From a virus, in IMG/VR virus record IMGVR_UViG_3300045988_172778, positions 32,001 to 96,000 of that record: a DNA stretch of 64,000 nt. One strand, written 5' to 3'. The notes under the pieces were generated by a model. It was not told where the DNA came from. It did no database searches and saw only the letters and a list, made by a program, of their open reading frames with translations. Of this stretch, positions 2,542 to 49,787 are shown piece after piece (position 1 is the stretch's first letter; every line of letters starts with the position of its first letter). A program made the position numbers and the translations under genes.

Positions 2542-3044
2542 AGATTTCAGAAGCTTGTTACGAGCAATTGAACAATCTTATCAAAAAGAGTTTCGATTGC
2601 AATGCTCAAGCGGATAACTTCGCGTATAACATCGATTACACGCGCTATCCGAACATCGCAAATCTTTATCATCATGCGTTTGCCCACAAATTTCCTCAGC
2701 TTGCGGACGTCATAAGTGACCTTATGATACAGTTAAACGCAAGACCAGTTAGAAAGGCAGTAAACGAGTATAAATCGGAATATCTCAGCCTTTATGACTT
2801 ATTTGTCGATAATGACCGAATGATGGAGGAGTATAGACAAGAGGTGCGTAAAACTATCGATATCGCAGATCTTAACGACGATTATGAAGTTAGAATCGCG
2901 ATGGAAGATTTTTTACTTAAACTTTTGCCTTATGTAAAACAGTCGGATATCTGGCGCACGAAGAGTGAGCAGTATAAGGATGATCCGTCGCAATTTGATG
3001 TGCATTTTGCAGAACTAACTACGCTTATCCCACACACATTATAA
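2538..3044 (+). CDS. hypothetical helical protein (possible ferritin/Dps-like bundle)
   Basis: 168 aa, translationally coupled. HHAFAHKF..ADVISDLMIQLNARP plus a later acidic helix DIADLNDDYEVRIAMEDF recall Dps-type four-helix bundles. The resemblance is at motif level only. Confidence 0.35.
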   Translation: MKISEACYEQLNNLIKKSFDCNAQADNFAYNIDYTRYPNIANLYHHAFAHKFPQLADVISDLMIQLNARPVRKAVNEYKSEYLSLYDLFVDNDRMMEEYRQEVRKTIDIADLNDDYEVRIAMEDFLLKLLPYVKQSDIWRTKSEQYKDDPSQFDVHFAELTTLIPHTL

Positions 3045-3079
3045 AATTAATTAACTTATAAAAAGGGGACTTTTAACAT

Positions 3080-3817
3080 ATGAAAGAAATTGTCGATTCA
3101 ATTATTAAATATGGAAGTACCCCTGTACTGATAGCTGTGCTTATATTTATTATTATTTGGTTCGCCAGATATCTTAAAGAAATAAGTGAGAAACAGCAAG
3201 AAGCAAGCCAGAGGTCCGAGGAGCGGGCTACTGAATTCTTAAAAATGATCAAAGAGGTCGAGGATAATACTAAACATACGCATCCTGGACCAGAAGAGGA
3301 AGAAAATAGGCGTTGTAATGATTTAGTAATGAATTTGTTAAATTGTTTACGTGAAAAATCTGGCGCAAATCGTGTAAGTTGTTTTATATACCATAATGGG
3401 GGGTATAGCGTAACTGGAAGAAGTTTTCAGAAAATGTCGATGCTTTATGAAGTAGTTGACGGGAAAACAGTTTCGGTGATGAATTCTTTTCAAAATGTTC
3501 CTCGAACAATGTTTTTCACACTTACTCAAAAACTATCAGAACAGGGTTGTTACGATATTAGCAATATCGAGGACATAAAAGATGCCGATGCGATAACGTA
3601 TCAAACCTTTTATGCAAGAGGGGCAAAGGCGGCATATTGCGGCGTAATCAGGGATAGTAGGAAAAATATTCTTGGTTTCATTGTTGTTGAATATACCGCT
3701 GACAAATGTAATGATGAGAAAAAGACGAAAGACCTTATTAAAAACAAGGTCAGCAAAATAAGCGCAGCATTGGAGGTAAATCCAGAAGCTCCGCTTAATC
3801 AAGGAGGGAAGAAATAA
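3080..3817 (+). CDS. membrane-anchored protein with GAF-like C-terminal domain
   Basis: 245 aa with an N-terminal hydrophobic helix (TPVLIAVLIFIIIWFA) and a charged linker. The ~150-aa alpha/beta region (CFIYHNGG...ILGFIVVEY) has a GAF-like pattern. Confidence 0.4.
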   Translation: MKEIVDSIIKYGSTPVLIAVLIFIIIWFARYLKEISEKQQEASQRSEERATEFLKMIKEVEDNTKHTHPGPEEEENRRCNDLVMNLLNCLREKSGANRVSCFIYHNGGYSVTGRSFQKMSMLYEVVDGKTVSVMNSFQNVPRTMFFTLTQKLSEQGCYDISNIEDIKDADAITYQTFYARGAKAAYCGVIRDSRKNILGFIVVEYTADKCNDEKKTKDLIKNKVSKISAALEVNPEAPLNQGGKK

Positions 3818-23908: not shown

Positions 23909-24919
23909 ATGGCAAGAACAACGGTATATAACGAAGATTTGTCAAAGGAGTGGCAGATCACAAACCCGAAAAATCAGAAATTACTCAAAGAATTTATTCG
24001 TTATTGCGTGGCGAACGATAAAAGCCCGCAAACTTGTAACCAATATGAGTCGCAACTCAAAATCTTCTTTTGTTGGAATTACAGGGAAAATGACGATAAG
24101 TTTTTTGTTGACATAAAGAAGCGCGAGCTTGTGAACTTTTTCGGTTGGGGGCGGAGTATCGGTTGGAGCTCGTGCAGGCTTGCTTCTCTTCGCGCGGCGT
24201 TAAGTTCGTTCAGCAATTACATAGAACGAATACTTGATGAGGATTATCCGACATTCAGAAACCTTGTGAAGGTTCTCGAACCGATTCACCTCGAAGCGGT
24301 TCGAGAAAAGACGATAATCGAGAAAGATGATATAATGGCAGGGATTGAGCGGTTAGTTGCGCTTGGAGAATACCAATACGCGTGTTTCCTCTCGCTCCTC
24401 TTTTCGTCTGGAATGAGAAAAGCGGAAGCCGCGCAGATGAAGGTCTCGTATTTCACGACCGATAAGGTAGTCGTGTTTAGGGGACTCGCTTATATGACTC
24501 CGAAAATCAGGACGAAAGGGCACGGGGCACGTGGCAAGCAGGTGCCGAGATACGTGTTCAAAGAAACGTTTGACAAATACTTTGAGCTATGGCTTAAAGA
24601 GCGCGAAAAGCTCGGGATCGAGATAGACGATTTATTCGTTGTAAAAGGTGCCGACGGGAGATACCGACCCGCAAAAGGGCAGAATTTTTCACATTGGGCA
24701 GTGAAAATCGGGGAGTTAATAGGCGTAAATTCACTATATTGTCACAGTTTGAGACACGCGTTTACGACGTATTTGAAACGGCAGAACTTCCCGACCGACG
24801 TCGTTCAGAAAATCCAATCGTGGGGAAGCGCAGATATGGTGGCGAGATATGATGACAGAAGCGATAGCGAAGAGTTGGATAGCTTTTTTGAAAAAATGAC
24901 CGAAAAGGAGAGAGAATAA
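23909..24919 (+). CDS. tyrosine site-specific recombinase (XerC/D- or Cre-size, no arm-binding domain)
   Basis: 336 aa. N-terminal SAM-like core-binding region, then SGMRKAEA (Arg), KIRTKGHGARGK (Lys), HSLRHAF (HxxR), and W..ARY (Trp/Tyr nucleophile). RBS AAGGAGGG. Confidence 0.8.
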   Translation: MARTTVYNEDLSKEWQITNPKNQKLLKEFIRYCVANDKSPQTCNQYESQLKIFFCWNYRENDDKFFVDIKKRELVNFFGWGRSIGWSSCRLASLRAALSSFSNYIERILDEDYPTFRNLVKVLEPIHLEAVREKTIIEKDDIMAGIERLVALGEYQYACFLSLLFSSGMRKAEAAQMKVSYFTTDKVVVFRGLAYMTPKIRTKGHGARGKQVPRYVFKETFDKYFELWLKEREKLGIEIDDLFVVKGADGRYRPAKGQNFSHWAVKIGELIGVNSLYCHSLRHAFTTYLKRQNFPTDVVQKIQSWGSADMVARYDDRSDSEELDSFFEKMTEKERE

Positions 24920-32460: not shown

Positions 32461-35400
32461 ATGAAAAAAACTGACAAAATCGGTGTTGAAATATATTTGA
32501 AACAATATGAAGATATGTTTAAACAGTATCAAGAACTTTTAAACAAAGAAATGGGCAATCATAAAGATATGCTAACTTCGATTATGAGAGAGCAACTTGA
32601 TGATCTCAAAGATACTTATAAACTTCCAATGGACAAAATCCGAGAAATAGAAGATCGTATTTTGGCGCCGAAATTAAAAGAACAGGCTGAGAAAGCAGCA
32701 CAACAAGCTAAAAAAGACGCTGAGGATTATTTGAAGAAGAACCAGGAGACTATCAATAAGGCATTAGGTGTTAATAAAGATAGTATGAAAACACTCTTAG
32801 AGACAAATAATTTAGTAGTCGAAAGTAGTAAAAAAGCTCTCGAGGACGCAAAAAAAGCGAAAGAAGCCATAGAGAAACAAGATAAAAAAATGAAGATGGA
32901 TAGAGTTAGGGGTGAAAGAACTCTTAAGGCTCAAAAGGCAAGAGCGGAAAAAGAGAGCCGAATGAGAGAGGAACAGGCTAAATCGATGTATTTTGAAGCC
33001 GCACCATCTTCTGATTATGAAGTGATAAACGTGCCTGGATGGGGGCATGATTATAAACATAAAAAAGCTAAAACTGCAAAAATGAGGAGTGGGAAAGAAG
33101 TAGATTTAGGTAACGTAAGGCAATTATCCGTTACCAAATTAGCATCTCTTATAACTCATAATTTTGAAGATTTTGAAGCTTTGGCAAAAGAAAATGCAAA
33201 GAAAATTGCTGATTTTGAATCCAAACATGGTAAAACCCCATTAGACAAAGATAAAGCTAAGGAACTTTCCGATCTTAAAACTTTACAACGTGAATATGAA
33301 GATGCTAATCTAAATTTAACAAATGCCCAAAAAAGAGGAACTGCATTTCATAAAGTGGTCGAGCTTGTAGAAAAAAGTGAAATTTCTTTGGATGAATTAA
33401 CAGAAGATAGATTAGAAGAACTTGGAAAGCAATATGACGAAATCGGGGAAGGGCTTAAACTTCAACAAAGAACCAAAAATGGCAAATTAAGGTCTGTTAA
33501 ACAAAACAAACAAATTTTAGATCTCGTAAAAAAATATGACGAATTTAAAAAACAAGCTGGGTTAAAGGGGCAAACAACTACAGAAACTCCGCTTGGGATG
33601 CTTGTAGATCTTGGTGACGAGGTTGTAGAAGTAGTAGGAACGTTTGATAGTATTTTCAACGAAATGTCGACCCTTGTGGACTTTAAAACTAGTAGCAGAG
33701 TCGATGTAAAAAAAATAGGAATACAGCTAAACTTACTCAAAAAAATGGCGCTCCTTAATCCCAAGTTTATGAAAGCCAAAGGGATAAAGGGTAGCCTCGA
33801 CGCGTTGAAAGTTTTCCATTTGCCATTTAGAGGCGGAAAGGGTGGTGTTTATGACGTTGGCACCGCCGATGATGCAATGATGTGGCAGTGGATAAAATCC
33901 GCTTTCGATATTTTAGCTGGAGAAACGACGGAAAAGCCTGACGTGCCTGTCTTAATGCGTGGTAAATTAACTCTTGGCGAATGGCAGAATAAAAAAAAAG
34001 GTACAAGTGGTAGGCAGTGGTTGCTCAATAATATTTCTTTAAACGATTTAGCCAAACAATATGAAAGAGGCACTATGTCTTACGAGGAAATTATGGATAA
34101 CATAAATTCCTTAAACGAAGAAGACCGTCGGCATTTCATAAATTTGATTTGGAGCACCAAAGAATACGAAGAAAAAAAGAAAACTCAACGAGTATTTAAA
34201 GTCGTAGATGGGAAACGCGTTCCACTGTTAGATGAAAAGGGGAATGCACAATACGATGCGTCTGGCAAGCCATTATATGAGATGCAAGATATTGTGTCTT
34301 CGGTCCCCCCGAGAGAAACTGGAAAATTATACAGACAGGGCGCATTGTGGGACAAATTAAGAGGCGATTTGAATTCTTTTCAAAAAGATATTGAAGGAAT
34401 AGTTGATGATGAATACGCAAATATATCTAATAGAATGACAAAAATTCAAAATCAAATCTCGAAAATCAAAATTTCTTATATAGAAGCAAAAGAATTTGTA
34501 ACCGATGCAAACGGGAATTTAATAGAAACCACAAAAACTATGCCTGCGAATGAAAAAGAAAAGGCGAAAGAAAATAGACGGAATGAGCTAATAATACAAA
34601 GAGAGGCGTTGCGCGAACAGTTGGCTAACCAAGCCACATCTGCTTTTTCTGAACAGGTTTTTAAAACAGATCAAGGATATGGGAGTGCTCAAACCATTGG
34701 TGGCGGGTATTTATCTGAGTGGGCAAAAGCTTATCGTATTCATTCTGAGAGCGGAGATGGATTGGCGGATCAAATCGCTAACCGTTTTGTCAGTTACATT
34801 TTAAACGCTGGATTGTCTAATTTTCAACTTGATGAATTGAAGGGTGGTTTAGTTGGTATAGCGGCAAAAGATGAAGCTAATCAAGCATTTGTGGACGCTA
34901 TTCAAGATAGACTGTTGGGAAAACATTCCGTAATTGCCCCTGATTTAGAGAGAGCCCAAGAACTCGAAAGTCAAATAATAGCACTTAATAAAGAAAGGGC
35001 TTCTTTAGATAAAGATGTTTTAAATCCAAGAATAGAAGAAATCGACAAACTTGTACAACAACTAATTGCGGAACAGGATCGAGTCAAATATGCTCAAGAA
35101 GTTGGTGGGATTTTTACCGATGAATCTATCGGCATAAATGAAATGACGGAGGATTATGCTTCAGAAAAAGGCAAAAAATCCGCTCGGATGCGAGGCGAAG
35201 CCGCAACTAATAGAGCTGCTCGAATGATAAGTCGGTTAAGAGCGTTTTCAGAATATGATTTGTCCGATAAAAGTTTTGACGACGTTATGGGATTTATCAA
35301 AGGTTTGTCTGGAATAAGGAATGAATTTAAAGGATTTTTAAACGCATTGGGTTCAGATGAAAATTCCGAAATAGACGAATATGGTGTGCCTGAATATATA

Positions 35401-37568
35401 GAAAAGAGCGAAAATATTTTGGACGCATGGACCACATTTGTCCGTAATTTAAAAAATAAAGTTCGCGGGTTAGAAAATTTAGACGAAAATCAGATAGAAG
35501 AGGCGGTTCGAGGATTAGACATTTCAACTGGCGTTCAAGAAGACATTGGAGGGCTTGCTAAAAAAACGGGGCATAAATTATCTTGGTTATATCAACTTAA
35601 AGATATTTACGACGAGTTTTTATCGCCAGAGATGGAAGAGGTTAACAAAAGTCTTTCTGAAAAAGCTAAATTTACTTCGGTTGAACAATATGCAAAGTCT
35701 CGACTTACACAAGCTCAATATGAACAATATGCTTCTTCAATTGATTTTAGAAAATCCATATCGGAAGGAAAAGATTTCAGTACCGTAATAAGCCAATTTT
35801 TGGATACGCCTGAATTTCAACTAAAAAGTAATTTGGCGACTGCGTTACAAAAAGCTTTAGCAAAAATAATGGAGGCGAATCCTCAACTTTTAGATGATAC
35901 CATTTATAATATTTTTATGACACAAACTGATTTAGGCGAAGGAAATAAAATGAAATGGTGGCATGGAATTGGGGCATCTGAAAGGTTAAGAAGGGGCGAT
36001 ATTGTTAGAAATTGGGCCTACAATCCCAACGAAATCCTAACGACGAAACCCGAAATGATCGTTGAAGTAGAAGAGAGAGCAGAAGAAAAATTACGCGATG
36101 AAAGTTCGATCAGAGACGCGGTAGAAAGCGCAAGAATCAGGGCGGAACAATCAGCTAGAGAATATAACCAAAAAGCATTTGACATTAAAAAACAAATTAC
36201 GGCTCAAACTGGATTTGATATTGAAGATTATGATAAAAAATATGGATTTGATAAATATGAAAATGCTTATAAAAAATTGTATGCTTTAGCAATAAAGGTC
36301 GGGCGTGGAGAAACTGATTACAAAGATTTTATGAGAGGAGAGCTGGGGGAAACTCATCTCTCTGGTGAAACTTTACAGAAATATGAAGAGCTTCGCAAAG
36401 GATTGGAGATCGCACAACTTCAAATGGGGATGCCCGATGATATGTCCGAAGAAGCGAAAGAGTTGTTTGCTAAAAGGCAACATCTTTTCGAAGAATATTA
36501 TATTCCGTCTCTTAGAGACAAAAGTTATGTCTCTATTTTAAGGAAAAGATATGGGGTTAAAGGCGACGAATCCGATGTTTTAGCTCAGCAAGCAGCGGTT
36601 GTAAACCAGATAAAATCTCTTCCCGATCAAGCACTTTTAAACACCACCTCTGAAATAAACGATGCAAAAAACGTAGACGTCGACGCGAATTCTATTACAG
36701 TGGGTGAACCCGAAAAAGTTGAAAATAATACCGAGACGACTGAAATAAAGGCTGACACCGTGGTGATAAATGAAGCAGAAAGCTCAGCGGATGCCGAAAA
36801 ACCCACCAAACGTCGTGGGCGTCCTCGTAAAAAGAAGGCCGAAGACGTTGAAGTGGCTTCTGAATCATCTGATAAAATGGAAGTTTCATCTGACGGTGGT
36901 ACTGGAGGCGGAGATGGAGGAGGTAAAACCCCACCGAAGTCTAGCGGAAGAAAAGGCAAGAGCGATGAAGAAAAGGCACAAGCGGATACTGAAAAACGGC
37001 AGAAACAAGATATAAGGGAATACCAACTGTATATTAACAGAGTTATAAGCCTTGAATCTCAGATTGATAAACTTCAAAGGCAAGCAGCGTTAAGCGGCGG
37101 AAAGCATAAGGATGCTATTTATGGAACAATTGACGCGCTTAATGAAGAGCTTGGGGATCTTAATCGTAATAACGACGCGCTCAAACAAAGAGTTGCGACC
37201 GAACAAGCAGCAACAAAAGAATCGATTGACGCAACAGCGGCCCTTAAGAAGCAATCAAACGCGCAAAAGAATCTTGTAAGCGTAAAAGGCGCAACTTCAA
37301 TCTGGGATATGATGGCGAACGACATTCGTCGTGCAACCATGCGTGTCGCAGACTTCGGAATTGCTGCGAAGGTTTTGAACAAGATCCCGCAGGATATACA
37401 GAAGGTAATTCAGTATACGAAAGAGTTGGACGCGGCGATGACGAATATTCGTGTCGTTACGGGTGCTTCGGCGGAAGAGGCTCAAACGCTCGCACAAGGA
37501 TATACACAACTTGCAAAAGAATTGGGGATAACCACTGTCGAAGTTGCTAATTCGGCAAACGAGTGGGT
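32461..37568 (+). CDS. tape measure protein, exon 1 (includes a PD-(D/E)XK-like domain and an AT-hook)
   Basis: Long coiled-coil-rich ORF. It ends ..AMTNIRVVTGASAEEAQTLAQGYTQLAKELGITTVEVANSANEWV, the start of the conserved tape-measure core. The frame then runs into a stop after 10 unrelated codons. Confidence 0.7.
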
Positions 37569-38742
37569 TAACAAATGTCTGGCTCACTATAAACTCCTTT
37601 AATTGCTGGAACCCCCTTAGAGCCATATAACTACAACATAACGATGAAATAGGCGTAAGTGTGATAGTTAAAAATATATGGATTGGGAAATCAGCAGCCA
37701 AACCTCGAACAGAGGAAGGTTCAACGAATATGTTCCACGAGTGTGGATAATGGGGAGCTCTACATAGAGAAATCTATGCGAAAGATATATTCTGAACTTC
37801 TGAGGAAACTCAGAGAAAATTCTATAAAAGGAGGTGAAATATTTGTGATAATAGAAAGTGAAGTTAAAATGGTTATAAATCAATATAATTTTGATTATTA
37901 TAAAAATCTTGGTTACGATATTCAAAAATGTGGACAACGAATTTTTGTAAAAGTTTCTGATTTACCAAAAACATCTGGGACAAAAATCCATACGATATGT
38001 GAATATTGTGGAGAAATAGTAGAAAAATCATACCGAAGGTATATAGAATCTATCGAATGTGGGAAAAACTGTTGTTCAAAATGTTTGAAATACAAAATTC
38101 CTGAAAATGTTTTAGAAAAATACGGATGTCGTTCTACTTTAAGAATTCCAGAAATTCATGAATCGGTAACTAAAAATAATCTTAAGAAGTACGGTTGTGA
38201 AAACCCTCTTGAATCAGCAGAAATTAGGGCTAAAGGTGTTCAGACTATGCAGAGTCGTTATGGTTGTAGTTATACCCTTCAAAGTGATGAATTACGTGAA
38301 AAGTGTAATCGGACATTATATGAAAATGGGAACGATATAACTGCGACAAGCAGACAACAAAGATATTTGTGTGATTTATACAAAGGAGAATTGAATTATC
38401 CTATTTGGATTTATCACATAGACATTTTGTTGTCGGACAACATATGTTGCGAATATGATGGAAGCGGTCACGATCTTAGTGTTAAATTAGGTAATGAAAC
38501 AAGAGAAAACTTTATTAGAAAAGAAAATAAAAGAATAACCTTTTTAACAAACCACAATTATAAGTTATTTAAAATACTTTCTAACACAGATATTTTGCCT
38601 AGTGATGAGATACTTTTAAACATAAAGAAACGGGCTTTTGAAATATTAAAAGTCCGAAATTATATGTATTATGAGTACAATTTAGACACAAATATAGAAT
38701 CTTTTAAATGATAAACTAAATTTAAAAGTAACACAATTACAG
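37569..38742 (+). mobile_element. group-I-like intron 1 with homing endonuclease ORF
   Basis: Exon GUGGGU (37563-37568) can pair with GCUCAC (37582-37587), giving a terminal U-G at the junction. GAAA-capped hairpins lie at 37763-37778 and 37800-37813. The 3' end reads aaaagtaacacaattacaG. Both the 5' and 3' ends resemble intron 2. Confidence 0.6.
37845..38711 (+). CDS. intron-encoded homing endonuclease (zinc ribbon + KYG..P repeats + EYDGSGHD nuclease core)
   Basis: GTG at 37845 (or ATG at 37869) behind AAAGGAGG. Motifs: CEYCG..CCSKC; repeats KYGCRSTL/KYGCENPL/RYGCSYTL; HIDILLSDNICCEYDGSGHD (Vsr/DUF559/EDxHD-like). It is AT-rich. Confidence 0.6.
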   Translation: MIIESEVKMVINQYNFDYYKNLGYDIQKCGQRIFVKVSDLPKTSGTKIHTICEYCGEIVEKSYRRYIESIECGKNCCSKCLKYKIPENVLEKYGCRSTLRIPEIHESVTKNNLKKYGCENPLESAEIRAKGVQTMQSRYGCSYTLQSDELREKCNRTLYENGNDITATSRQQRYLCDLYKGELNYPIWIYHIDILLSDNICCEYDGSGHDLSVKLGNETRENFIRKENKRITFLTNHNYKLFKILSNTDILPSDEILLNIKKRAFEILKVRNYMYYEYNLDTNIESFK

Positions 38743-41700
38743 ACAAGGTTACGCAGGGGAAGAAGCCAACCAATTGATTGTCGCTTCCTCAAAACTCGCT
38801 AAACTCGGTATGATTTCGACCACCGAGGCAACTAAAGATTTGACGAGCGCGATAAAAGGCTTTAAACTTTCTACAGAAGACGCGATGTCGGTTGTCGATA
38901 AATTGACAAAAATCGACCAAGTGGCTGCAATTTCCGCAGGAAATTTAGCAGAAGGTCTCGCGCGAGTCTCTACTACCGCACAACAAGCAGGGCTTTCGCT
39001 CGACGAAACCGCCGCAATGGTAACTACGATTACCGAAGTTACGCAGCGTGACGCAAGCACGGCGGGTGAGGCGCTCAGAACTCTTATTTCGAGATACTCT
39101 AACGTTAAAGCGGGCGTATTCACGAGTATGGGAGAAGAAGCCGAAGAAACTTCTGGAAACATAAACGATATCGAAAAAGTATTGGGCAAGTTGGGAATTC
39201 GAATTCGTACTTCTGGAACTGAAATGAGAAGTATTGAAGACGTCCTTGACGAATTGGCTGAAAAGTGGAACACATTAGACGATGTAAGTCGTAATGCAGT
39301 TGCAAGTGCTTTTGCGGGCGTTCGCCAACGTGAATCATTCAATATATTATTAAGCAACTGGAACCGTGTAAAGGAACTCACTGAAGAATCTGCTAACGCC
39401 GCAGGAACCGCTGACGAGAAATACTCCGCTTACATGGACTCTATGGAGGCGGCGACGAAGCGGCTTCAAAACGCGTGGGAAGGATTTACTCAATCGCTCG
39501 AAACAAGCACGGTAATGAAATTCCTCACAAATACGACCGCCGCGATAGTCGAAAATGCCGATAAATTTAAGCTCGTTGTAACTGGGATTGCAGCCGCGAG
39601 TTCATTAAAAATTTTTGACTTCTTTACCAACAAAGGTGAAACGGGCGGATTCAAAGGCTTAATCGCCAACATCCCGTTTATAGGTAGAGGAACGAAGACT
39701 AACAATATTCTCGAAAGTATTGACAAAAAAGTCGGTAACATCGAGAAAGGCGTCGGAGCGGATTCGATAGCAAACCAAACGAAGAATGGCGGGTTATTTA
39801 AAAGAATTGGAAGCTTCCTAAAAAATGGTTTTGGATTTGGTGATATTTATGACCCAAATTCTGATACATCAATTTCAAGAAAGACACTCAGATTATATAA
39901 ACAATCCCAAAAAGGCAAAATACGTCTTGGTGATGATTTCCTGGGTTATACTAAGGGGTTAACGGATGATGAACGCGAGCTTTTAAGACTGTCAGCAACA
40001 GTAGGGCGAAAAGATTCTAAAGAAATGATGGAGGCGTATAACAAGCTTCTCAAACAGCGTAAAATCGGGAATGCCGCGATGGGTGCAACTTCTGCCGTTT
40101 TGACCAATCTGTTTACCACGAAACAAGTCGGTGGGGACATTGGCGGTTCTTTCATGAAAAATATCATGGGAATGGGCGATAACGAACAAGTTGTAGAAGA
40201 AACTGCTGGAGATAAAATTGGGAGAACAATTAGTTCTGGTATTCTTGCTGGGGTTGGAGGCTATTTCTTAGGTCCTCTTGGAGCGATGCTCGGGCAAACG
40301 CTCGGCGAGGGGTTTGCAAGCATGTTTTCCACGTGGTATCACCGTGACGAGCTCGCAATGAAGCAGCGTGTTGCCGAAGCCAAAGAAAACCTTTCTGCAC
40401 TCGGCGATATAAAAAACGCTATCGAAAATAACGAGGATTTATTAAACAAAGATTCTTACACGTCTGAGGATATCGAAAAGTTAAAAACATACGCAGATTC
40501 TTTAAGAAAAACCTTCACTAAGAATGACAATTTAGCTGAGTCGTTTTTAGATGACGTTAAGAAACTCGACATTGGAACATTTACGACAATTGAAGATATC
40601 CTCTCTCAAATAACCAAAGGTAATGCCGATATCAATAAGCAGCTTAAGAGACAATTAGAACTCACAACGGCTAGATTAACGGTGGAAGAAACTCTCGGGG
40701 AACAGGAAGAAGATAGGGCGGAAATTAATAAATATAGTAAAGACAATGGATTTAGGGTACTTCAATCGAATACACCAGGTGATTTATCAAATTTTGTCGG
40801 TCGTTTTGGATCTGTATCTAAATATGGCACTATTAGTGTGCGTAACCGTCATGCAATTAAAAAAACAAAATATGGTATTCAGGTTGCTGGAAATACTATT
40901 GAAGAACAATTTGAAAACGCAGAACAGATTTTACAAAATTTTAGGAATGCTGGTGGTAAGTATAACGATATTGCCCAGGAATGGGAAAAAGTTGTTGATG
41001 AATATCAGAAACAATTAAATAAACAAACAGAACTTAATAATGAGCTTTTATCTACTCAAGTTGATTACGCTTATTTAACTTCCGATATTTTAAACACCAA
41101 GTCTCGTGATGAAATACGTGATCTTGGTATGGAAGGCGTTGTTAAGATAATTCGTGACGAACTAATTTCGCAAGGTGTTGGTGTGGTTGATGAGAATGGA
41201 GTAATTCATCAAGACGCTTATGATGCCATCGTTAAAAAGATACGTTCTGACTCGACTTTGAGTGATTATATAACGAAAGATATTCGTTCGATTGGGGATC
41301 TTATTTCCAAAGACGATATACGAGGCATTGAATCGTTTGCAAGAGCATTTGGTTTAACAACCGAGGCGGCGAAAGAGCTTGGTAAGCAGTTTGGATATTT
41401 AACTCAATCAATGGGTTTGATGAACGTTCAAGAGACGACGGAATACTATGAGAAACTGAGTACGGTATTTTCAAATTTAAGCTCGAATGTTGCTTTGACT
41501 GCAGGGCAGATTAGCAGTCTTTTGACGACCTCTGAACTCAAAGATTTGCTTCCGTATTTGATGAACCAAGACGACCCTGACGCTTTGATAAAGGAACTTT
41601 ATAAGAGAATTTACGGCGGCGGTCAGGATGTCCATATGGAGAACGCGCTTTATGACGCGACCATGGGGATGTCGACCGATAAATTCAGAGAATACTTGCA

Positions 41701-42049
41701 AAACAAAGGGCTAAAAGAATATGCTGCTGAAATTGACAAAGGTGGGTATACCACCTTATCTCAAATTAGAGATGCGGTTAAAGAATTTGACGAGACAGAC
41801 CCGAGACGTAAAACGTTTTTGGAATATCTTGAAACGATAAATTATACTTACTCCAAAGACTTGACAGCTTTAGAGAAACCGTCCGAGTATATTAAATCTC
41901 AACTCGAAGAGCAAATAAACAATCTTCAAGAGCAAAAAGATGCTTTATCTCAAATTAATGACGAGAGAGAAAAAGAACTTAATCTAATTAAAGCGAAACA
42001 AGCGCTCGAAAACGCTCGGAAAGAAAAGAGAAGGGTTTATAGACAGGGT
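38743..42049 (+). CDS. tape measure protein, exon 2 (conserved core)
   Basis: Reads (V)QGYAGEEANQLIVASSKLAKLGMISTTEATKDLTSAIKGFKLSTEDAMSVVDKLTKIDQVAAISAGNLAEGLARVSTTAQQAGLSLDETAAMVTTITEVTQ, the classic TP901-type tape-measure core. It ends ..EKRRVYRQG. Confidence 0.7.
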
Positions 42050-43288
42050 AAACAAATATGCCCTTAAGTAACTATATCGGTTAAAACCTAGAAGTAGGTA
42101 AGACCGAGGTAAGATAAATTTTAAAATGTTAATATGCAATAAAATATAAATAAATTAAAAAAGGAGGTGATGACATGGAAAATAATATTAAAGAAGATTT
42201 GATAGCGTTAACCAACGAACAGGCAAAGAAGATTAATGCTGAAATTATTGAAAGATTTACGGGGAAAGACGGTAAGGCAAAGTTAAAAATACGCTCTTTA
42301 TCATATCCCGAAAAAGGAGTAAGGGTCGTTGATCGATATAATTTCTTGCACTCCACTGCCCAATATAGATATTTTAACGCCGTGACTTGTAAAAATGATT
42401 TATTGAGACATGAAGAAATAACATCTAGAATTGATATAATTGGAGATTATATCAACACTGCGACAAAAATTTTATGCAAATGTAAAATTTGTAGCAATGA
42501 ATGGATGGTAACTCCAAACAAATTATTACAAGGTCGTGGATGCCCTAAGTGTGCTTCACAAAAAGCACATCGGGCTTACTCTAAATCACATGAAGAATTT
42601 ATAAATGAATTAAAAAACGTCAACCCTTCTATCACGATACTTGATGAATATTATAATAATCGCACTAAAATAAGATACAAGTGTAATATTTGTAATAAAG
42701 TATCTATGTCTACTCCTTGTAAATTATTAGACGGGGAGAGCGGGTGCCATTTTTGTAAAAGCTCGATCGGTGAACAGAAGATATTCTGTTTTTTATTTGC
42801 CCACAAAGTACCATTTGAGAGAGAAAAATATTTTGAAGATTGTAAAGATAAAGGGAAATTACCTTTTGACTTTTATTTATCTGATTATAATATTTGTATT
42901 GAATTTCAAGGTGAACAACATTTCCGTCCAGTAGACTTTTCATATACTCCAACTGAGGAATCGAAAAATAAAGCCGTTGAAAAATTTAAAGGTATTCAGA
43001 AGCGTGATAAAATAAAAGCAGAATATTGTAAACAGAATGGAATACGTCTTTTAATTATTGATTATAAACAAATAAAAAATATAGAAAGCATATTAACAAA
43101 AGAATTAAATTTATCAACCGTAACGACTGCAGGATCTTTGTGGTAACATAAAGATTGAAGTTACTTCAATATGTTTTAGACATATTGTAATATACAGTCT
43201 GAACTCGTAATATAACGAAATGAAATACGAGAGTAAGGATTAACGTCCTTGCCGCCACATTTATTGTGGTCATAAAAGTAACAGATTG
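42050..43288 (+). mobile_element. group-I-like intron 2 with homing endonuclease ORF
   Basis: Exon AGGGU (42045-42049) pairs with GCCCU (42060-42064), giving a terminal U-G. The 3' end reads aaaagtaacagattG. Several hairpins lie in 43147-43288. The junction restores ..RVYRQG|IGFVMESNEEAIAEAQ. Confidence 0.65.
42175..43146 (+). CDS. intron-encoded homing endonuclease (two zinc ribbons + PD-(D/E)XK core)
   Basis: 323 aa with RBS AAGGAGG. Motifs: CKCKICSNEW..GRGCPKC and CNICNKV..GCHFC; LPFDFYLSDYNICIEFQGEQHF nuclease motif. It is AT-rich. Confidence 0.65.
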   Translation: MENNIKEDLIALTNEQAKKINAEIIERFTGKDGKAKLKIRSLSYPEKGVRVVDRYNFLHSTAQYRYFNAVTCKNDLLRHEEITSRIDIIGDYINTATKILCKCKICSNEWMVTPNKLLQGRGCPKCASQKAHRAYSKSHEEFINELKNVNPSITILDEYYNNRTKIRYKCNICNKVSMSTPCKLLDGESGCHFCKSSIGEQKIFCFLFAHKVPFEREKYFEDCKDKGKLPFDFYLSDYNICIEFQGEQHFRPVDFSYTPTEESKNKAVEKFKGIQKRDKIKAEYCKQNGIRLLIIDYKQIKNIESILTKELNLSTVTTAGSLW

Positions 43289-44266
43289 ATTGGCTTCGTT
43301 ATGGAAAGCAACGAGGAAGCAATTGCCGAAGCGCAAAAAAATCTCGAGAACTTAAATACTCAAAAACGCCAAGAAAATCTTCAAACGCAAATTGACGCGC
43401 TTCAGATGCAGAAAGACATTATCGAAGCTCTTCCAAATCAGGCTCAACTCGAACAAACCAAAAAGATTTGGGAATTGTGGGCAGCGGATAAGGGAACGAA
43501 AGGAAGTCTTGCTTCTGTAACCGAAGGCGTAACGATGTTGGCGGATGCTTATACAAATGCCACAAATCGGATGAATATGCGTGCTAAAACAGAAGGGGTT
43601 CTAAATACACCTGATGAAAAGAGCAGTATGCAGACATCTGATAAAAATACTAACCCCGTTATCACCCTTAGTGAAACTCAAATAGAATATACTAAAGCCT
43701 TAGTTTCTAACGTGGATGATATTAGAAATATCTTATTAGGGAAACATACTAAAAACTTCCAAAATATGTTGGATTTCGTGAACAAAAACAACATGCTTCA
43801 AGGCGATTATGCACGGTGGGGAGAAATGTTCAGAGCTGCTGGTATATTAAACGAATGGAATTCTTTGTCTGATAAAGAGAAAGAAGCTATTAGAAGCCAA
43901 GCAAATACGAGAGCGGGTGGAGACATTTCCTTCCAAGGCGGTAAAGCTCTTATCAACGAGCTCGGAACCGAAGCGGTCATCACGCCAGGCGGCACGCTTA
44001 CCGCCCTTCCTTCGAAGACGGGTATCGTCCCTGCGGACATAACCCGAAACGTTTGGGCGCTCGGAGAAGTCGCTCCGACGTTGGTCGCACAGCTCGGCTC
44101 GCTTACGCAGAAGACGCTCTCTGGCAACGCTGTAAACACAACTTACGAAGAAGGTCAATACTTCGACAACTTTACGATGAACGTTTACCCCGCAAAGGGC
44201 GACGATTTCAACAAGATACTCGAACAGGCGCGCGCACAAATGCGACTTACGCGTCATAACAACTAA
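43289..44266 (+). CDS. tape measure protein, exon 3
   Basis: IGFVMESNEEAIAEAQKNLE... ; the C-terminal GGKALINELGTEAVITPGGTLTALPSKTGIVPADIT is typical of tape-measure C-termini. Confidence 0.65.
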   Translation: MGFVMESNEEAIAEAQKNLENLNTQKRQENLQTQIDALQMQKDIIEALPNQAQLEQTKKIWELWAADKGTKGSLASVTEGVTMLADAYTNATNRMNMRAKTEGVLNTPDEKSSMQTSDKNTNPVITLSETQIEYTKALVSNVDDIRNILLGKHTKNFQNMLDFVNKNNMLQGDYARWGEMFRAAGILNEWNSLSDKEKEAIRSQANTRAGGDISFQGGKALINELGTEAVITPGGTLTALPSKTGIVPADITRNVWALGEVAPTLVAQLGSLTQKTLSGNAVNTTYEEGQYFDNFTMNVYPAKGDDFNKILEQARAQMRLTRHNN

Positions 44267-48545: not shown

Positions 48546-49787
48546 ATGGGCGATTATAAAGTTAGAAGCGCAAGTGGAGATATTTTGGCGTATTACTCAA
48601 CAGAGACTTCCCAAAATATCTCCATAGAACGTATAAAGCAAGAAATAGACAATGCCCCCGTGATAAACCCAAAATTTCGGTTCCATATTCTTAACGAAGA
48701 CGAGACAATTCGAGAGGATATTCCCGAAGAAGATGTAATCATAGGCGGGACTTATAATGAGAACTATCAGAACGGGCAACGTCGAAGTATCTCAATTTCA
48801 CTATTTAATCACACTGGGAAATATACGCCTTCCATAAACGGGTTATGGGTTGGAGTTAAAATAAGCTTCGATATGGGTTTAGAAATAAACGGTGTTACTA
48901 TTTGGTTCAAGAAAGGAATTTATGTTATTTCATCGATTTTCCCCTCTCATGAACCTAAAACGACAAATGTTAGCGTAGAATTGAGCGATAAATTTGCCGT
49001 TTTAGAAGGTGCAACGGGAACATTTGAGACCTCATATACTGTTCCAGTAGGCAATGACATTCAAGAAGTGATTCAGAATTTGCTTAATTTGCAAAGAGGA
49101 AACGGGCAGGTAATCGATCCGAAACCCATAATATATAACAGCAAGTTTAAGGGCGCAAAAATACAAGCCGAAATACCCAAACAAGCAGGAGACACCATAG
49201 GTTCGATAATAATAGACATAGCCACTCAACTTAACGCGGAAGTGTTTTACGATGTCGAAGGAAATCTCACGTTTGTTCCGATAAACGATGTGACGGGTGA
49301 TGAGGATAAACCCGTCATATACCATTTTTATGATGAAAACGGGGATATCTTTAATAATAATTTGTCATTTGATCTTAGCGGGGCGATTAACCGTGTTATA
49401 GTGATTGGTTCAACTGTTAATAGCAATGTTATTACAGCCACTTCCGTGAATGATAATGTTGGGTCGCCCTTATGCTACCAGCGAATTGGATATCGAACCG
49501 CAAGCCCAATAAACGACTCGAATATTACCACCGAAATTTTAGCGCAAGAACGTGCCGATTACGAGCTTCGTCAGCATTTGATACTTAAATCAAGTGCGAG
49601 CAACGGTGTTCGGTATAACCCGCTTTTATCGGTAAACAATTTAATCGGCGTAACAGATTCGTTTTACGGATTTAATCAGGAACGATTTTTGTTGCAAAGT
49701 ATAAGTTGCCCGATTGATTATAGCGGTTCGATGAGTATAACAAGTGCAAATATACAGAATTTCGGATTTTTAACGACTCGGAGGTAA
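48546..49787 (+). CDS. tail-tip/baseplate hub-like protein
   Basis: 413 aa. ..VSVELSDKFAVLEGATGTFETSYTVPVGNDIQEVIQNLL.. recalls XkdQ/gpD-like hub proteins (weak). Confidence 0.4.
   Translation: MGDYKVRSASGDILAYYSTETSQNISIERIKQEIDNAPVINPKFRFHILNEDETIREDIPEEDVIIGGTYNENYQNGQRRSISISLFNHTGKYTPSINGLWVGVKISFDMGLEINGVTIWFKKGIYVISSIFPSHEPKTTNVSVELSDKFAVLEGATGTFETSYTVPVGNDIQEVIQNLLNLQRGNGQVIDPKPIIYNSKFKGAKIQAEIPKQAGDTIGSIIIDIATQLNAEVFYDVEGNLTFVPINDVTGDEDKPVIYHFYDENGDIFNNNLSFDLSGAINRVIVIGSTVNSNVITATSVNDNVGSPLCYQRIGYRTASPINDSNITTEILAQERADYELRQHLILKSSASNGVRYNPLLSVNNLIGVTDSFYGFNQERFLLQSISCPIDYSGSMSITSANIQNFGFLTTRR

What the first reader, a model, noticed from the sequence alone, without database searches (positions are those of the whole stretch)
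32461..44266. Giant (3130-codon) tape-measure gene interrupted by two related group-I-like introns, each with a homing endonuclease
The conserved tape-measure core is cut twice. The first cut is ..ELGITTVEVANSANEWV | QGYAGEEANQLIVASSKLAKLGMISTTEATKDL.. . The second is ..ARKEKRRVYRQG | IGFVMESNEEAIAEAQ.. . The three pieces lie in different frames and are separated by 1174 and 1239 nt. Each gap contains an AT-rich endonuclease ORF with its own AGGAGG. Both 5' junctions read GGGU| followed by (U/A)AACAAAU. In each case a downstream guide pairs with the exon end to leave a terminal U-G wobble, the group I P1 hallmark (GCUCAC 37582-37587 with GUGGGU; GCCCU 42060-42064 with AGGGU). Both introns end AAAAGUAACA(N5-9)G. 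GAAA-tetraloop hairpins lie at 37763-37778 and 37800-37813. Splicing at these points yields one ORF of 9393 nt. A twin-intron tape measure of this size, which would imply a tail of several hundred nm if length scales as usual, is unusual.
Basis: partly seen in the sequence, partly recalled or inferred. Interest (0 to 1): 0.75.

Follow-up and report, generated by a model that had tools for sequence, protein, structure and literature searches.

The report
Tape-measure gene with two self-splicing introns
A very long phage tail "tape-measure" gene is interrupted by two mobile group I introns, each carrying a homing-endonuclease gene; this arrangement is already known in other phages, but the first intron belongs to a clade whose DNA ends in A, not the near-universal G.

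Summary
Three collinear ORF pieces (32461-37568, about 38740-42049, 43289-44266) are separated by two AT-rich inserts, each with an endonuclease ORF.

Both inserts are group I introns.
- Intron 1: its core scores 53 bits (cutoff 50) on Rfam RF00028 once filters are relaxed. It is homologous to more than 200 phage introns and shows compensatory changes in P1, P3, P5, P6 and P7.
- Intron 2: a homologue sits at the same tape-measure site in Thomasclavelia phage TR-TP1. All helices, including the P3/P7 pseudoknot, are kept by compensatory changes.
- Relatives lacking either intron read straight through the junctions.

One correction is needed. An intron-less allele with identical flanks shows that intron 1 is 37569-38739 (1171 nt) and ends ...AAUUA. 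All 12 distinct copies examined, from three sublineages, end in A, and a 5-bp P10 sits in that register. Whether RNA is cut after A38739 or G38742 needs RT-PCR.

The two introns belong to different sublineages. Multi-intron tape-measure genes were described in 2008, so the headline is a new member of a known kind. The A-ended clade is the new part.

The parts
32461..37568 (+). Tape-measure exon 1 (1702 codons + 2 nt), ATG 32461 with GGAGG at 32449-53
   Evidence: ORF and sequence. Its last ~27 aa complete the Pfam PhageMin_Tail domain when joined to exon 2.
37563..37587 (+). Intron 1 P1: exon GUGGGU 37563-68 pairs with guide GCUCAC 37582-87, with U37568.G37582 at the cleavage site
   Evidence: Two compensatory positions among natural copies: GUGGGU/GCUCAC, CUGGCU/GGUCAG and GUGGCU/GGUCAC.
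37569..38739 (+). Intron 1 as a DNA insertion (1171 nt), a group I intron of the subgroup IA type. The core lies 5' of the ORF. The intron ends in hairpin 38701-09/38720-28 followed by the tail UAACACAAUUA.
   Evidence: L001 (no intron) versus L026 (intron) have identical flanks. L004 also lacks the intron. All copies end AATTA.
37577..37581 (+). Guide segment GUCUG, forming P10 with CAGAC 38740-44 and contiguous with P1
   Evidence: 100% paired in 10 introns. The first pair is G-C in 6 and A-U in 4.
37594..37813 (+). Intron 1 catalytic core, P3 to P9. P7 is 37722-23 + 37726-31 paired with 37787-94, with G37726-C37792 as the G-binding pair. P8 is 37763-78 and P9 is 37800-13.
   Evidence: Rfam RF00028 scores 53.1 bits, E 6.7e-13, over 37525-37815. 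BLAST finds homology to 231 phage records. Covariation is shown.
37845..38711 (+). Intron 1 endonuclease ORF (288 aa), GTG start, AGGAGG at 37829-34, placed downstream of P9
   Evidence: Pfam DUF7487 at 4e-13 and phrog_12131 'homing endonuclease' at 5e-38. ORF-less copies of the same intron exist: L192 is of the window type, and L185, L187 and L188 are of the L184 type.
38740..42049 (+). Tape-measure exon 2. It begins C|AGA CAA GGT (V-R-Q-G-Y).
   Evidence: Homologues all read EW[LMV]RQGY. PhageMin_Tail scores 112.7 bits with Arg against 104.9 bits without it.
42050..43288 (+). Intron 2 (1239 nt), group I, with its ORF in the P6 loop.
Helices (window coordinates):
- P1: 42045-49 / 42060-64
- P3: 42066-73 / 43159-66
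- P4: 42077-81 / 42103-07
- P5: 42087-90 / 42095-98
- P6: 42108-10 / 43117-19
- P7: 43125-29 / 43195-99
- P7.1: 43136-42 / 43147-53
- P8: 43169-74 / 43180-85
- P9: 43204-09 / 43226-31
- P9.1: 43235-39 / 43246-50
- P9.2: 43255-59 / 43265-69
The intron ends with G43288.
   Evidence: All helices pair in group I order in this intron, in the TR-TP1 intron and in the extra L009 intron, with different sequences in each. Relatives without the intron are collinear across the site.
42175..43146 (+). Intron 2 endonuclease ORF (323 aa). Its last codons overlap P6', P7 and P7.1.
   Evidence: Pfam CapR and DUF4379 zinc-finger hits. phrog_559 at 7e-60, plus phrog_9084 and phrog_7140 (homing / intron-encoded nuclease). 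Weak DUF2726 hit.
43289..44266 (+). Tape-measure exon 3 (325 codons + stop)
   Evidence: P0043 is 92% identical and uninterrupted across the junction.

Best explanation
One tape-measure gene of about 3131 codons is interrupted by two mobile group I introns from different sublineages. Each carries its own homing-endonuclease gene.

Proposed mechanism:
- The gene is transcribed as one RNA.
- Each intron folds into the P1-P9 ribozyme and takes up free guanosine. It cuts after the exon U that pairs with the guide G (U37568, U42049), then joins the exons.
- The endonucleases cut intron-less alleles during co-infection, so the introns are copied in. This produces the presence/absence pattern seen among relatives.

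Boundaries:
- Intron 2 is canonical (42050-43288, ending in G).
- Intron 1, as a DNA element, is 37569-38739 and ends in A.

For intron 1, I favour exact excision after A38739, positioned by a 5-bp P10 and a 2-bp P9.0. I put this at about 0.55. The alternative is cutting after the next G (38742), which removes one Arg codon; I put this at about 0.35.

Shown: homology, fold, covariation, DNA boundaries. Inferred: actual splicing, homing activity, and which 3' bond is used.
For: Single gene:
- Pfam PhageMin_Tail covers profile positions 2-201 only across the join.
- Relatives read through site 1 (L001, L004) and site 2 (L003/P0043, P0047, P0048, P0062).

Intron 1 is group I:
- Rfam RF00028 scores 53.1 bits against a cutoff of 50.
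- Same-site introns in L184, L185 and L187 score 78-83 bits.
- BLAST homologues Str-PAP-1 and Goe20 score 82 and 72 bits.
- In 10 introns, 98.8% of cells are paired and 11 pairs carry compensatory changes. No shuffle out of 500 reaches the covariation score, and slid registers pair only 28-45%.

Intron 2 is group I:
- A homologue lies at the same site in TR-TP1.
- All helices are fully paired in three divergent introns, in group I order.

Mobility:
- The intron 1 copy in L009 differs from the window at 2 positions across the intron, while the aligned stretch as a whole is 97% identical.
- ORF-less derivatives exist.
- A relative carries a third intron.

The boundary at 38739:
- Related introns end AUUG| (AM1, intron 2, TR-TP1), where this clade ends AUUA|.
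Against: - No RNA data of any kind were available. Splicing is inferred.
- A 3'-terminal G is near-universal in group I introns.
- The P7 G-binding pair here is the ordinary G-C. From my recollection of Tetrahymena mutagenesis, not checked here, that pair should bind a terminal A poorly.
- The P10 covariation is one event between two clades, and three of the four possible base combinations would pair anyway.
- The helices of intron 2 were chosen by eye on three sequences, and Rfam does not detect its 3' half on its own.
- Neither endonuclease has a solved or characterised close relative.
Confidence: 0.85

Rival explanations
1. One reading: intron 1 is spliced after G38742. The mRNA then lacks CAG and the protein reads EWV-QGY, one residue shorter than in every intron-less relative.
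For: - The cut is in frame.
- It supplies the canonical terminal G to an ordinary G-C binding pair.
- The related AM1 intron is spliced at G|ACAAG.
- From memory, Tetrahymena introns with a mutated terminal G use nearby G residues instead.
Against: - It removes an Arg that is invariant in homologues and costs 7.8 bits on the Pfam model.
- CAG is exon sequence in intron-less alleles with identical flanks.
- No P10 is possible in this register, whereas CAGAC/GUCUG is 100% paired in the other register.
- The spacing from the conserved tail motif is N9, against N5 in intron 2, TR-TP1 and the L009 intron.
Confidence: 0.35
2. A split gene: the inserts are not removed and the tape measure is made as three separate polypeptides that assemble, with the endonuclease genes free-standing between them.
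For: - Public annotations of Str-PAP-1 and TR-TP1 list the pieces as separate CDS.
- No RNA evidence is available.
Against: - The cuts fall inside a conserved domain and in different frames.
- Exons 2 and 3 have no convincing start codon with a ribosome-binding site at their 5' ends.
- Complete ribozyme cores with covariation flank the ORFs.
- ORF-less inserts of ~300 nt occupy the same site, which a free-standing-gene model does not explain.
Confidence: 0.03
3. Intron 1 is a decaying, splicing-defective element (its terminal G mutated to A) and this tape-measure gene is a pseudogene in a defective phage.
For: The terminal A, and the fact that default Rfam filters miss the core.
Against: - The A is conserved in all 12 distinct copies examined, from three sublineages, on 69-145 kb phage contigs with diverged exons.
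- The core keeps pairing through compensatory change.
- The copy in L009 is almost identical to the window's although the aligned stretch as a whole is only 97% identical, which implies recent transfer.
Confidence: 0.05

Closest known systems
Group I introns IVS1-IVS3 in tape-measure genes of Bacillus cereus-group prophages (Tourasse & Kolsto 2008, PMC2504315)
   Same: - Subgroup IA group I introns sit in conserved parts of a tape-measure gene, with several sites per gene.
- They show a presence/absence pattern among relatives.
- Some carry endonuclease genes and some have lost them.
- P1/P10 adapt to the target site.
   Different: - Different host gene lineage, different insertion sites, and a much longer gene (~3131 aa against >1200 aa).
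- I found no non-G 3' end mentioned in the section of that paper that I read.
Tape-measure intron of Thomasclavelia phage TR-TP1/TR-TP2 (PQ571309/10), annotated only as separate genes
   Same: - Homologous to intron 2 (71% over the 3' half).
- Same insertion site (..VY..G|[VI]G[FW]..).
- Same P1 (AGGGU/GCCCU), an ORF in P6, and the same tail AAAAG(U/C)AACAGAUUG|.
   Different: Longer P1 loop, a stronger P10, and a larger endonuclease (415 aa). Most helices differ in sequence but stay paired.
Widespread phage subgroup IA group I introns recognised by Rfam RF00028 (e.g. the Str-PAP-1 tape-measure intron, Bacillus Goe20, Lactococcus AM1 nrdE, Vibrio ICP1)
   Same: - Intron 1 shares the P4/P6, R and S elements, the GAAA-capped P9, the UGGGU| exon end and the GCUCA guide.
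- AM1 has the same AUU-terminal motif.
   Different: - Intron 1 has a compensated A-U in place of C-G in P7.
- Its ORF lies after P9.
- It ends in A instead of G.
Sea-anemone mitochondrial ND5-717 group I intron (PMC8146996)
   Same: It naturally ends in A instead of G, and RNA-seq shows exact exon ligation there.
   Different: It is an obligatory, vertically inherited organellar intron, unrelated in sequence and not mobile. The phage clade has not been tested at the RNA level.

Membership tests
Group I intron (intron 1) | Conserved core P3-P9 with the P3/P7 pseudoknot, recognised by the family covariance model | tested here: met
   RF00028 scores 53.1 bits (cutoff 50) on 37525-37815. Same-site relatives score 78-83 bits. 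Helices are kept by compensatory changes. Default filters missed it.
Group I intron (intron 1) | P1 with a U.G wobble at the 5' splice site | tested here: met
   U37568.G37582 is invariant. Two other P1 pairs covary.
Group I intron (intron 1) | 3'-terminal guanosine | tested here: not met
   The DNA element ends in A38739 in all 12 distinct copies examined. A G lies 3 nt downstream, inside the exon's Arg codon. Which bond is used cannot be settled without RNA.
Group I intron (intron 1) | G-binding G-C pair in P7 next to a bulge | tested here: met
   G37726-C37792 follows the bulged A37724/C37725 and is invariant in 10 introns.
Group I intron (intron 1 and 2) | Guanosine-dependent self-splicing | not testable with these tools
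   Needs in vitro transcription with GTP, or RT-PCR.
Group I intron (intron 2) | Core helices in group I order with R/S-like elements, U.G at the 5' site and a terminal G | tested here: met
   P1-P9.2 are fully paired in intron 2, TR-TP1 and the L009 intron, with different sequences. R is AACGACUG and S is AUAUACAGUCUGAAC. The pair is U42049.G42060 and the intron ends at G43288. The helices were hand-built on three sequences.
Group I intron (intron 2) | Recognition by the Rfam covariance model | tested here: not met
   No hit at E<=10 over the whole intron or on the 3' half alone. This is expected, because a 1-kb ORF splits the core at P6. An ORF-deleted sequence could not be submitted to the tool.
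Homing endonuclease genes | Similarity to a known nuclease family with a catalytic motif | tested here: inconclusive
   There are PHROG homing-endonuclease / intron-encoded-nuclease families at 5e-38 and 7e-60, and Pfam DUF7487 and CapR/DUF4379 zinc fingers. No characterised catalytic domain and no PDB relative was found.
Phage tape-measure protein | TMP domain, and position between tail-chaperone-like and distal tail genes | tested here: met
   PhageMin_Tail at 112.7 bits. 14 PHROG tape-measure families hit. A tail protein gene lies downstream at 48546-49787 and tail-fibre-like genes lie upstream. The N-terminal 1600 aa match nothing.

The most novel reading that the evidence does not exclude
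A clade of mobile phage group I introns, found at one tape-measure site in at least three sublineages, splices exactly although its last nucleotide is A and its G-binding pair is an ordinary G-C. The 3' site would be fixed by a strong P10 contiguous with P1, plus P9.0. In my limited search this would be the first bacterial or phage example of a natural A-ended group I intron, and it comes in a compact 304-335 nt ORF-less form that suits biochemistry.
Probability: 0.5. Interest if true: 0.65.

Novelty: new variant of a known kind. Interest (0 to 1): 0.45.

Why it matters
The headline is ordinary biology: introns with endonuclease genes in a tape-measure gene. Its main use is for annotation, because public records such as Str-PAP-1 and TR-TP1 list these genes as fragments.

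The part worth a bench experiment is the intron 1 clade. Group I introns are defined partly by a terminal G that docks in the same pocket as the guanosine cofactor. Here a conserved A sits at that position in an otherwise textbook ribozyme, with a G exactly one codon downstream.
- If the RNA is cut after the A, it shows how far P10 and P9.0 can replace recognition of the terminal G.
- If it is cut after the G, the phage tolerates loss of an otherwise invariant Arg, and the DNA and RNA boundaries of a mobile intron differ.

One RT-PCR decides between them.

Tried and rejected
- Rfam at gathering threshold on the whole window, and at E<=10 on 37400-43500, found nothing. This was a filter loss for intron 1 and a real miss for intron 2.
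- A megablast of the whole region against phage genomes gave only a 107-nt hit.
- A gapped DNA pattern scan of IMG/VR for the intron 1 tail returned 119 loci. None of the 10 that shared the tail or exon context was a relative, so the scan was wasted.
- Alignment A1 was too divergent for the search for related loci.
- A tape-measure C-terminal alignment found only two viral loci.
- BLAST with ORF-less intron 2 found only TR-TP1/2.
- BLAST with an ORF-less site-1 intron found no isolated phage carrying it at this site.
- Considered and rejected: a 5' site after A37571 (giving EWVKQGY). P1 covariation and the L026/L001 comparison both rule it out.
- Considered and rejected: an intein, group II intron or translational bypass. 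The pieces are in different frames with stops between them, no reverse transcriptase is present, and the inserts are over 1 kb.
- Literature searches found no report of an A-ended phage intron, but the search tool cannot match the omega sign.
- I found no function for the shared AAAAGUAACA tail.
Full report
**What is in the sequence**

Joining 32461-37568, 38743-42049 and 43289-44266 gives a single 9393-nt ORF. The gaps are 1174 and 1239 nt long and 30-31% GC, against 38-45% in the exons. Each gap has an ORF behind an AGGAGG: 37845-38711 with a GTG start, and 42175-43146. The quoted junction strings, guide sequences and GAAA hairpins are all present. The gene starts at ATG 32461 behind a GGAGG.

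**It is one tape-measure gene**

- Exon 2 alone matches Pfam PhageMin_Tail from profile position 28. The joined protein matches positions 2-201 with a higher score.
- Fourteen PHROG tape-measure families hit exon 2.
- Database homologues run uninterrupted across junction 1 (P0001-P0005) and across junction 2 (P0043 at 92% identity, P0047, P0048, P0062).
- The close relative L004/L005 carries intron 2 but not intron 1, in one ORF of at least 3100 aa.
- L003 lacks intron 2.
- L009 (IMG/VR 3300045988_171725, 145 kb) has both introns plus a third.
- The window comes from a large phage of uncultured origin. The relatives' contigs are 69-145 kb.

**Intron 1 is a group I intron**

- Default Rfam runs found nothing. 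Searching 37500-37860 alone, with laxer filters, gave RF00028 at 53.1 bits (cutoff 50), E 6.7e-13.
- BLAST of the 5' 320 nt hit 231 phage records. Str-PAP-1 and Goe20 among them score 82 and 72 bits on RF00028.
- IMG/VR relatives of the tape measure carry introns at exactly this site. L184, L185 and L187 score 78-83 bits, and L192 scores 47 bits.
- On an alignment of ten site-1 introns, my P1/P3-P7/P9.0/P10 structure is 98.8% paired, with 11 pairs changed on both sides. No shuffle out of 500 reaches the covariation score, and slid registers pair only 28-45%. Most of these changes are a single split between two clades, so they count as few independent events.
- P1 shows three variants, all fully paired: GUGGGU/GCUCAC, CUGGCU/GGUCAG and GUGGCU/GGUCAC.
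- The window's P7 carries a compensated A-U where the consensus has C-G. That probably explains the weak Rfam score.
- The ORF lies after P9. A 9-bp hairpin and an 11-nt tail follow it.

**The 3' end of intron 1 must be moved**

- Every homologue reads EW[LMV]RQGY.
- Intron-less L001 reads GAGTGGCT CAGACAAGGTTACGAAAGCACCGAGGAG. L026 has the same flanks with the intron between CT and CAG. No base is shared across the ends, so the inserted element is unambiguous. In the window it is 37569-38739, ending AATTA.
- L004 agrees.
- The corrected ORF is 9396 nt, 3131 aa. PhageMin_Tail rises from 104.9 to 112.7 bits.
- CAGAC 38740-44 pairs with GUCUG 37577-81, directly next to the P1 guide. That is the expected geometry for P10. 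In the L184-188 clade the guide reads GUCUA and the exon reads UAGAC.
- Related introns end AUUG| (AM1 nrdE, intron 2, TR-TP1), and this clade ends AUUA|.
- All 12 distinct copies examined, from three sublineages and including ORF-less forms of 304-335 nt, end in A.

*Against exact excision after the A.* A terminal G is near-universal, and the G-binding pair here is an ordinary G-C. From memory of Tetrahymena work, a terminal A needs a changed binding pair, and mutants tend to use a nearby G. The next G, 38742, is exactly one codon downstream, so that outcome would also be in frame.

*Precedent for a working terminal A.* The sea-anemone ND5-717 intron ends in A and is spliced exactly (PMC8146996).

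I put exact excision at about 0.55 and use of G38742 at about 0.35.

**Intron 2 is a group I intron of another sublineage**

- Rfam does not see it. A 1-kb ORF splits the core.
- Its 3' half is 71% identical to a stretch between two tape-measure fragments of Thomasclavelia phage TR-TP1, beside an 'HNH endonuclease' gene.
- The TR-TP1 element sits at the same protein position and has the same P1 and the same tail.
- The extra intron in L009 is a third member of this sublineage.
- In all three, P1, P3, P4, P5, P7, P8, P9, P9.1 and P9.2 are fully paired in group I order, including the P3/P7 pseudoknot. P7.1 is present and fully paired in intron 2 and TR-TP1 only. The sequences of P3, P5, P7.1, P8, P9, P9.1 and P9.2 differ between the introns. 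By reading the sequences, a 3-bp P6 (GGU/ACC, GCA/UGC, GGA/UCC) closes the ORF loop.
- R (AACGACUG) lies inside the end of the ORF.
- These helices were picked by eye on three sequences, which is the weak point.

**Are the two introns related?**

Only loosely. They share the S element plus CUGAAC, a 5' AACAAAU, and AAAAGUAACA near the 3' end. That 10-mer occurs nowhere else in the window. It is also in the L009 intron, and it appears as AAAAGCAACA in TR-TP1. I could not assign it a pairing partner.

**The endonucleases**

- ORF1: DUF7487 and phrog_12131 (homing endonuclease).
- ORF2: zinc-finger domains, phrog_559, and nuclease families phrog_9084 and phrog_7140.
- Neither has a solved or characterised close relative.

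**Comparison with what is known**

- Tourasse & Kolsto 2008 reported subgroup IA1/IA2 introns at three sites in tape-measure genes of B. cereus-group prophages. At least one prophage (B. cereus E33L) has two in its tape-measure gene. They also described the same mosaic distribution and loss of endonuclease genes.
- Str-PAP-1 and TR-TP1 carry such introns in public records without annotation, and ICP1 has one next to its putative tape-measure gene.
- PHROG tape-measure profiles reach 2600-3100 positions, so the length is large but not unique.
- The tail-length inference cannot be tested here. The first 1600 aa match no family.

**Verdict**

This is a real and well-supported pair of group I introns in a giant tape-measure gene. 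As a kind of feature it is already known. [quoted passage not shown]

Noticed in passing
L009 3977-5413 (IMG/VR 3300045988_171725); equivalent to window 39317|39318 (AFAG|VRQR): A 97%-identical relative has a third group I intron in the same tape-measure gene, which the window lacks. It is of the intron 2 sublineage (GCUGGU|AGGAUG...GAAAAGUAACAAAAAG|GUACGU). It carries a 380-aa ORF with a Pfam HNH_repeat domain.
   Followed up: partly
L189, L193-L197 (IMG/VR); equivalent to about window 38842 (..TKDL|TSAIKG..). Also L187 3826-4006.: More distant tape-measure relatives are interrupted at a further site about 34 codons downstream of site 1. L187 has a second weak RF00028 hit there (33.8 bits). 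This conserved domain is an intron hot spot.
   Followed up: partly
L185, L187, L188, L192: ORF-less copies (304-335 nt) of the site-1 intron exist. In L192 the endonuclease ORF of the window-type intron has been deleted cleanly, while the terminal hairpin and tail are kept.
   Followed up: partly
window 38724-38733 and 43274-43283; L009 about 5395; L047 about 3136: The 10-mer AAAAGUAACA (AAAAGCAACA in TR-TP1) lies 5-6 nt before the 3' end of introns from two different sublineages, and nowhere else in the window. Its role is unexplained.
   Followed up: partly
window 37525-37815: The Rfam group I model misses this intron with default filters and with E<=10 on 6 kb, but scores it above threshold when only 361 nt are searched. 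Negative whole-window Rfam scans are unreliable for such introns.
   Followed up: yes
L007 (Str-PAP-1 NC_028666) and L047 (TR-TP1 PQ571309): Public phage records annotate intron-split tape-measure genes as separate 'tape measure', 'hypothetical' and 'endonuclease' CDS. Str-PAP-1 appears to hold two ribozyme cores and two endonuclease ORFs in one gap.
   Followed up: partly
window 23909-24919: An integrase-family ORF (phrog_1 at 2.5e-24) lies upstream of the tail-fibre-like genes of this large phage.
   Followed up: no
L002 (ENA ERZ1767612 NODE_4, 153 kb): The tape-measure homologue is a 277-aa fragment surrounded by many very short ORFs. This could mean further interruptions or a recoded stop codon.
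   Followed up: no
L001 versus window 36868-37448 and beyond: L001 is 94% identical to the window up to about 37448 and then diverges sharply, while keeping the site-1 target sequence. This looks like a mosaic recombination boundary close to the intron site.
   Followed up: no
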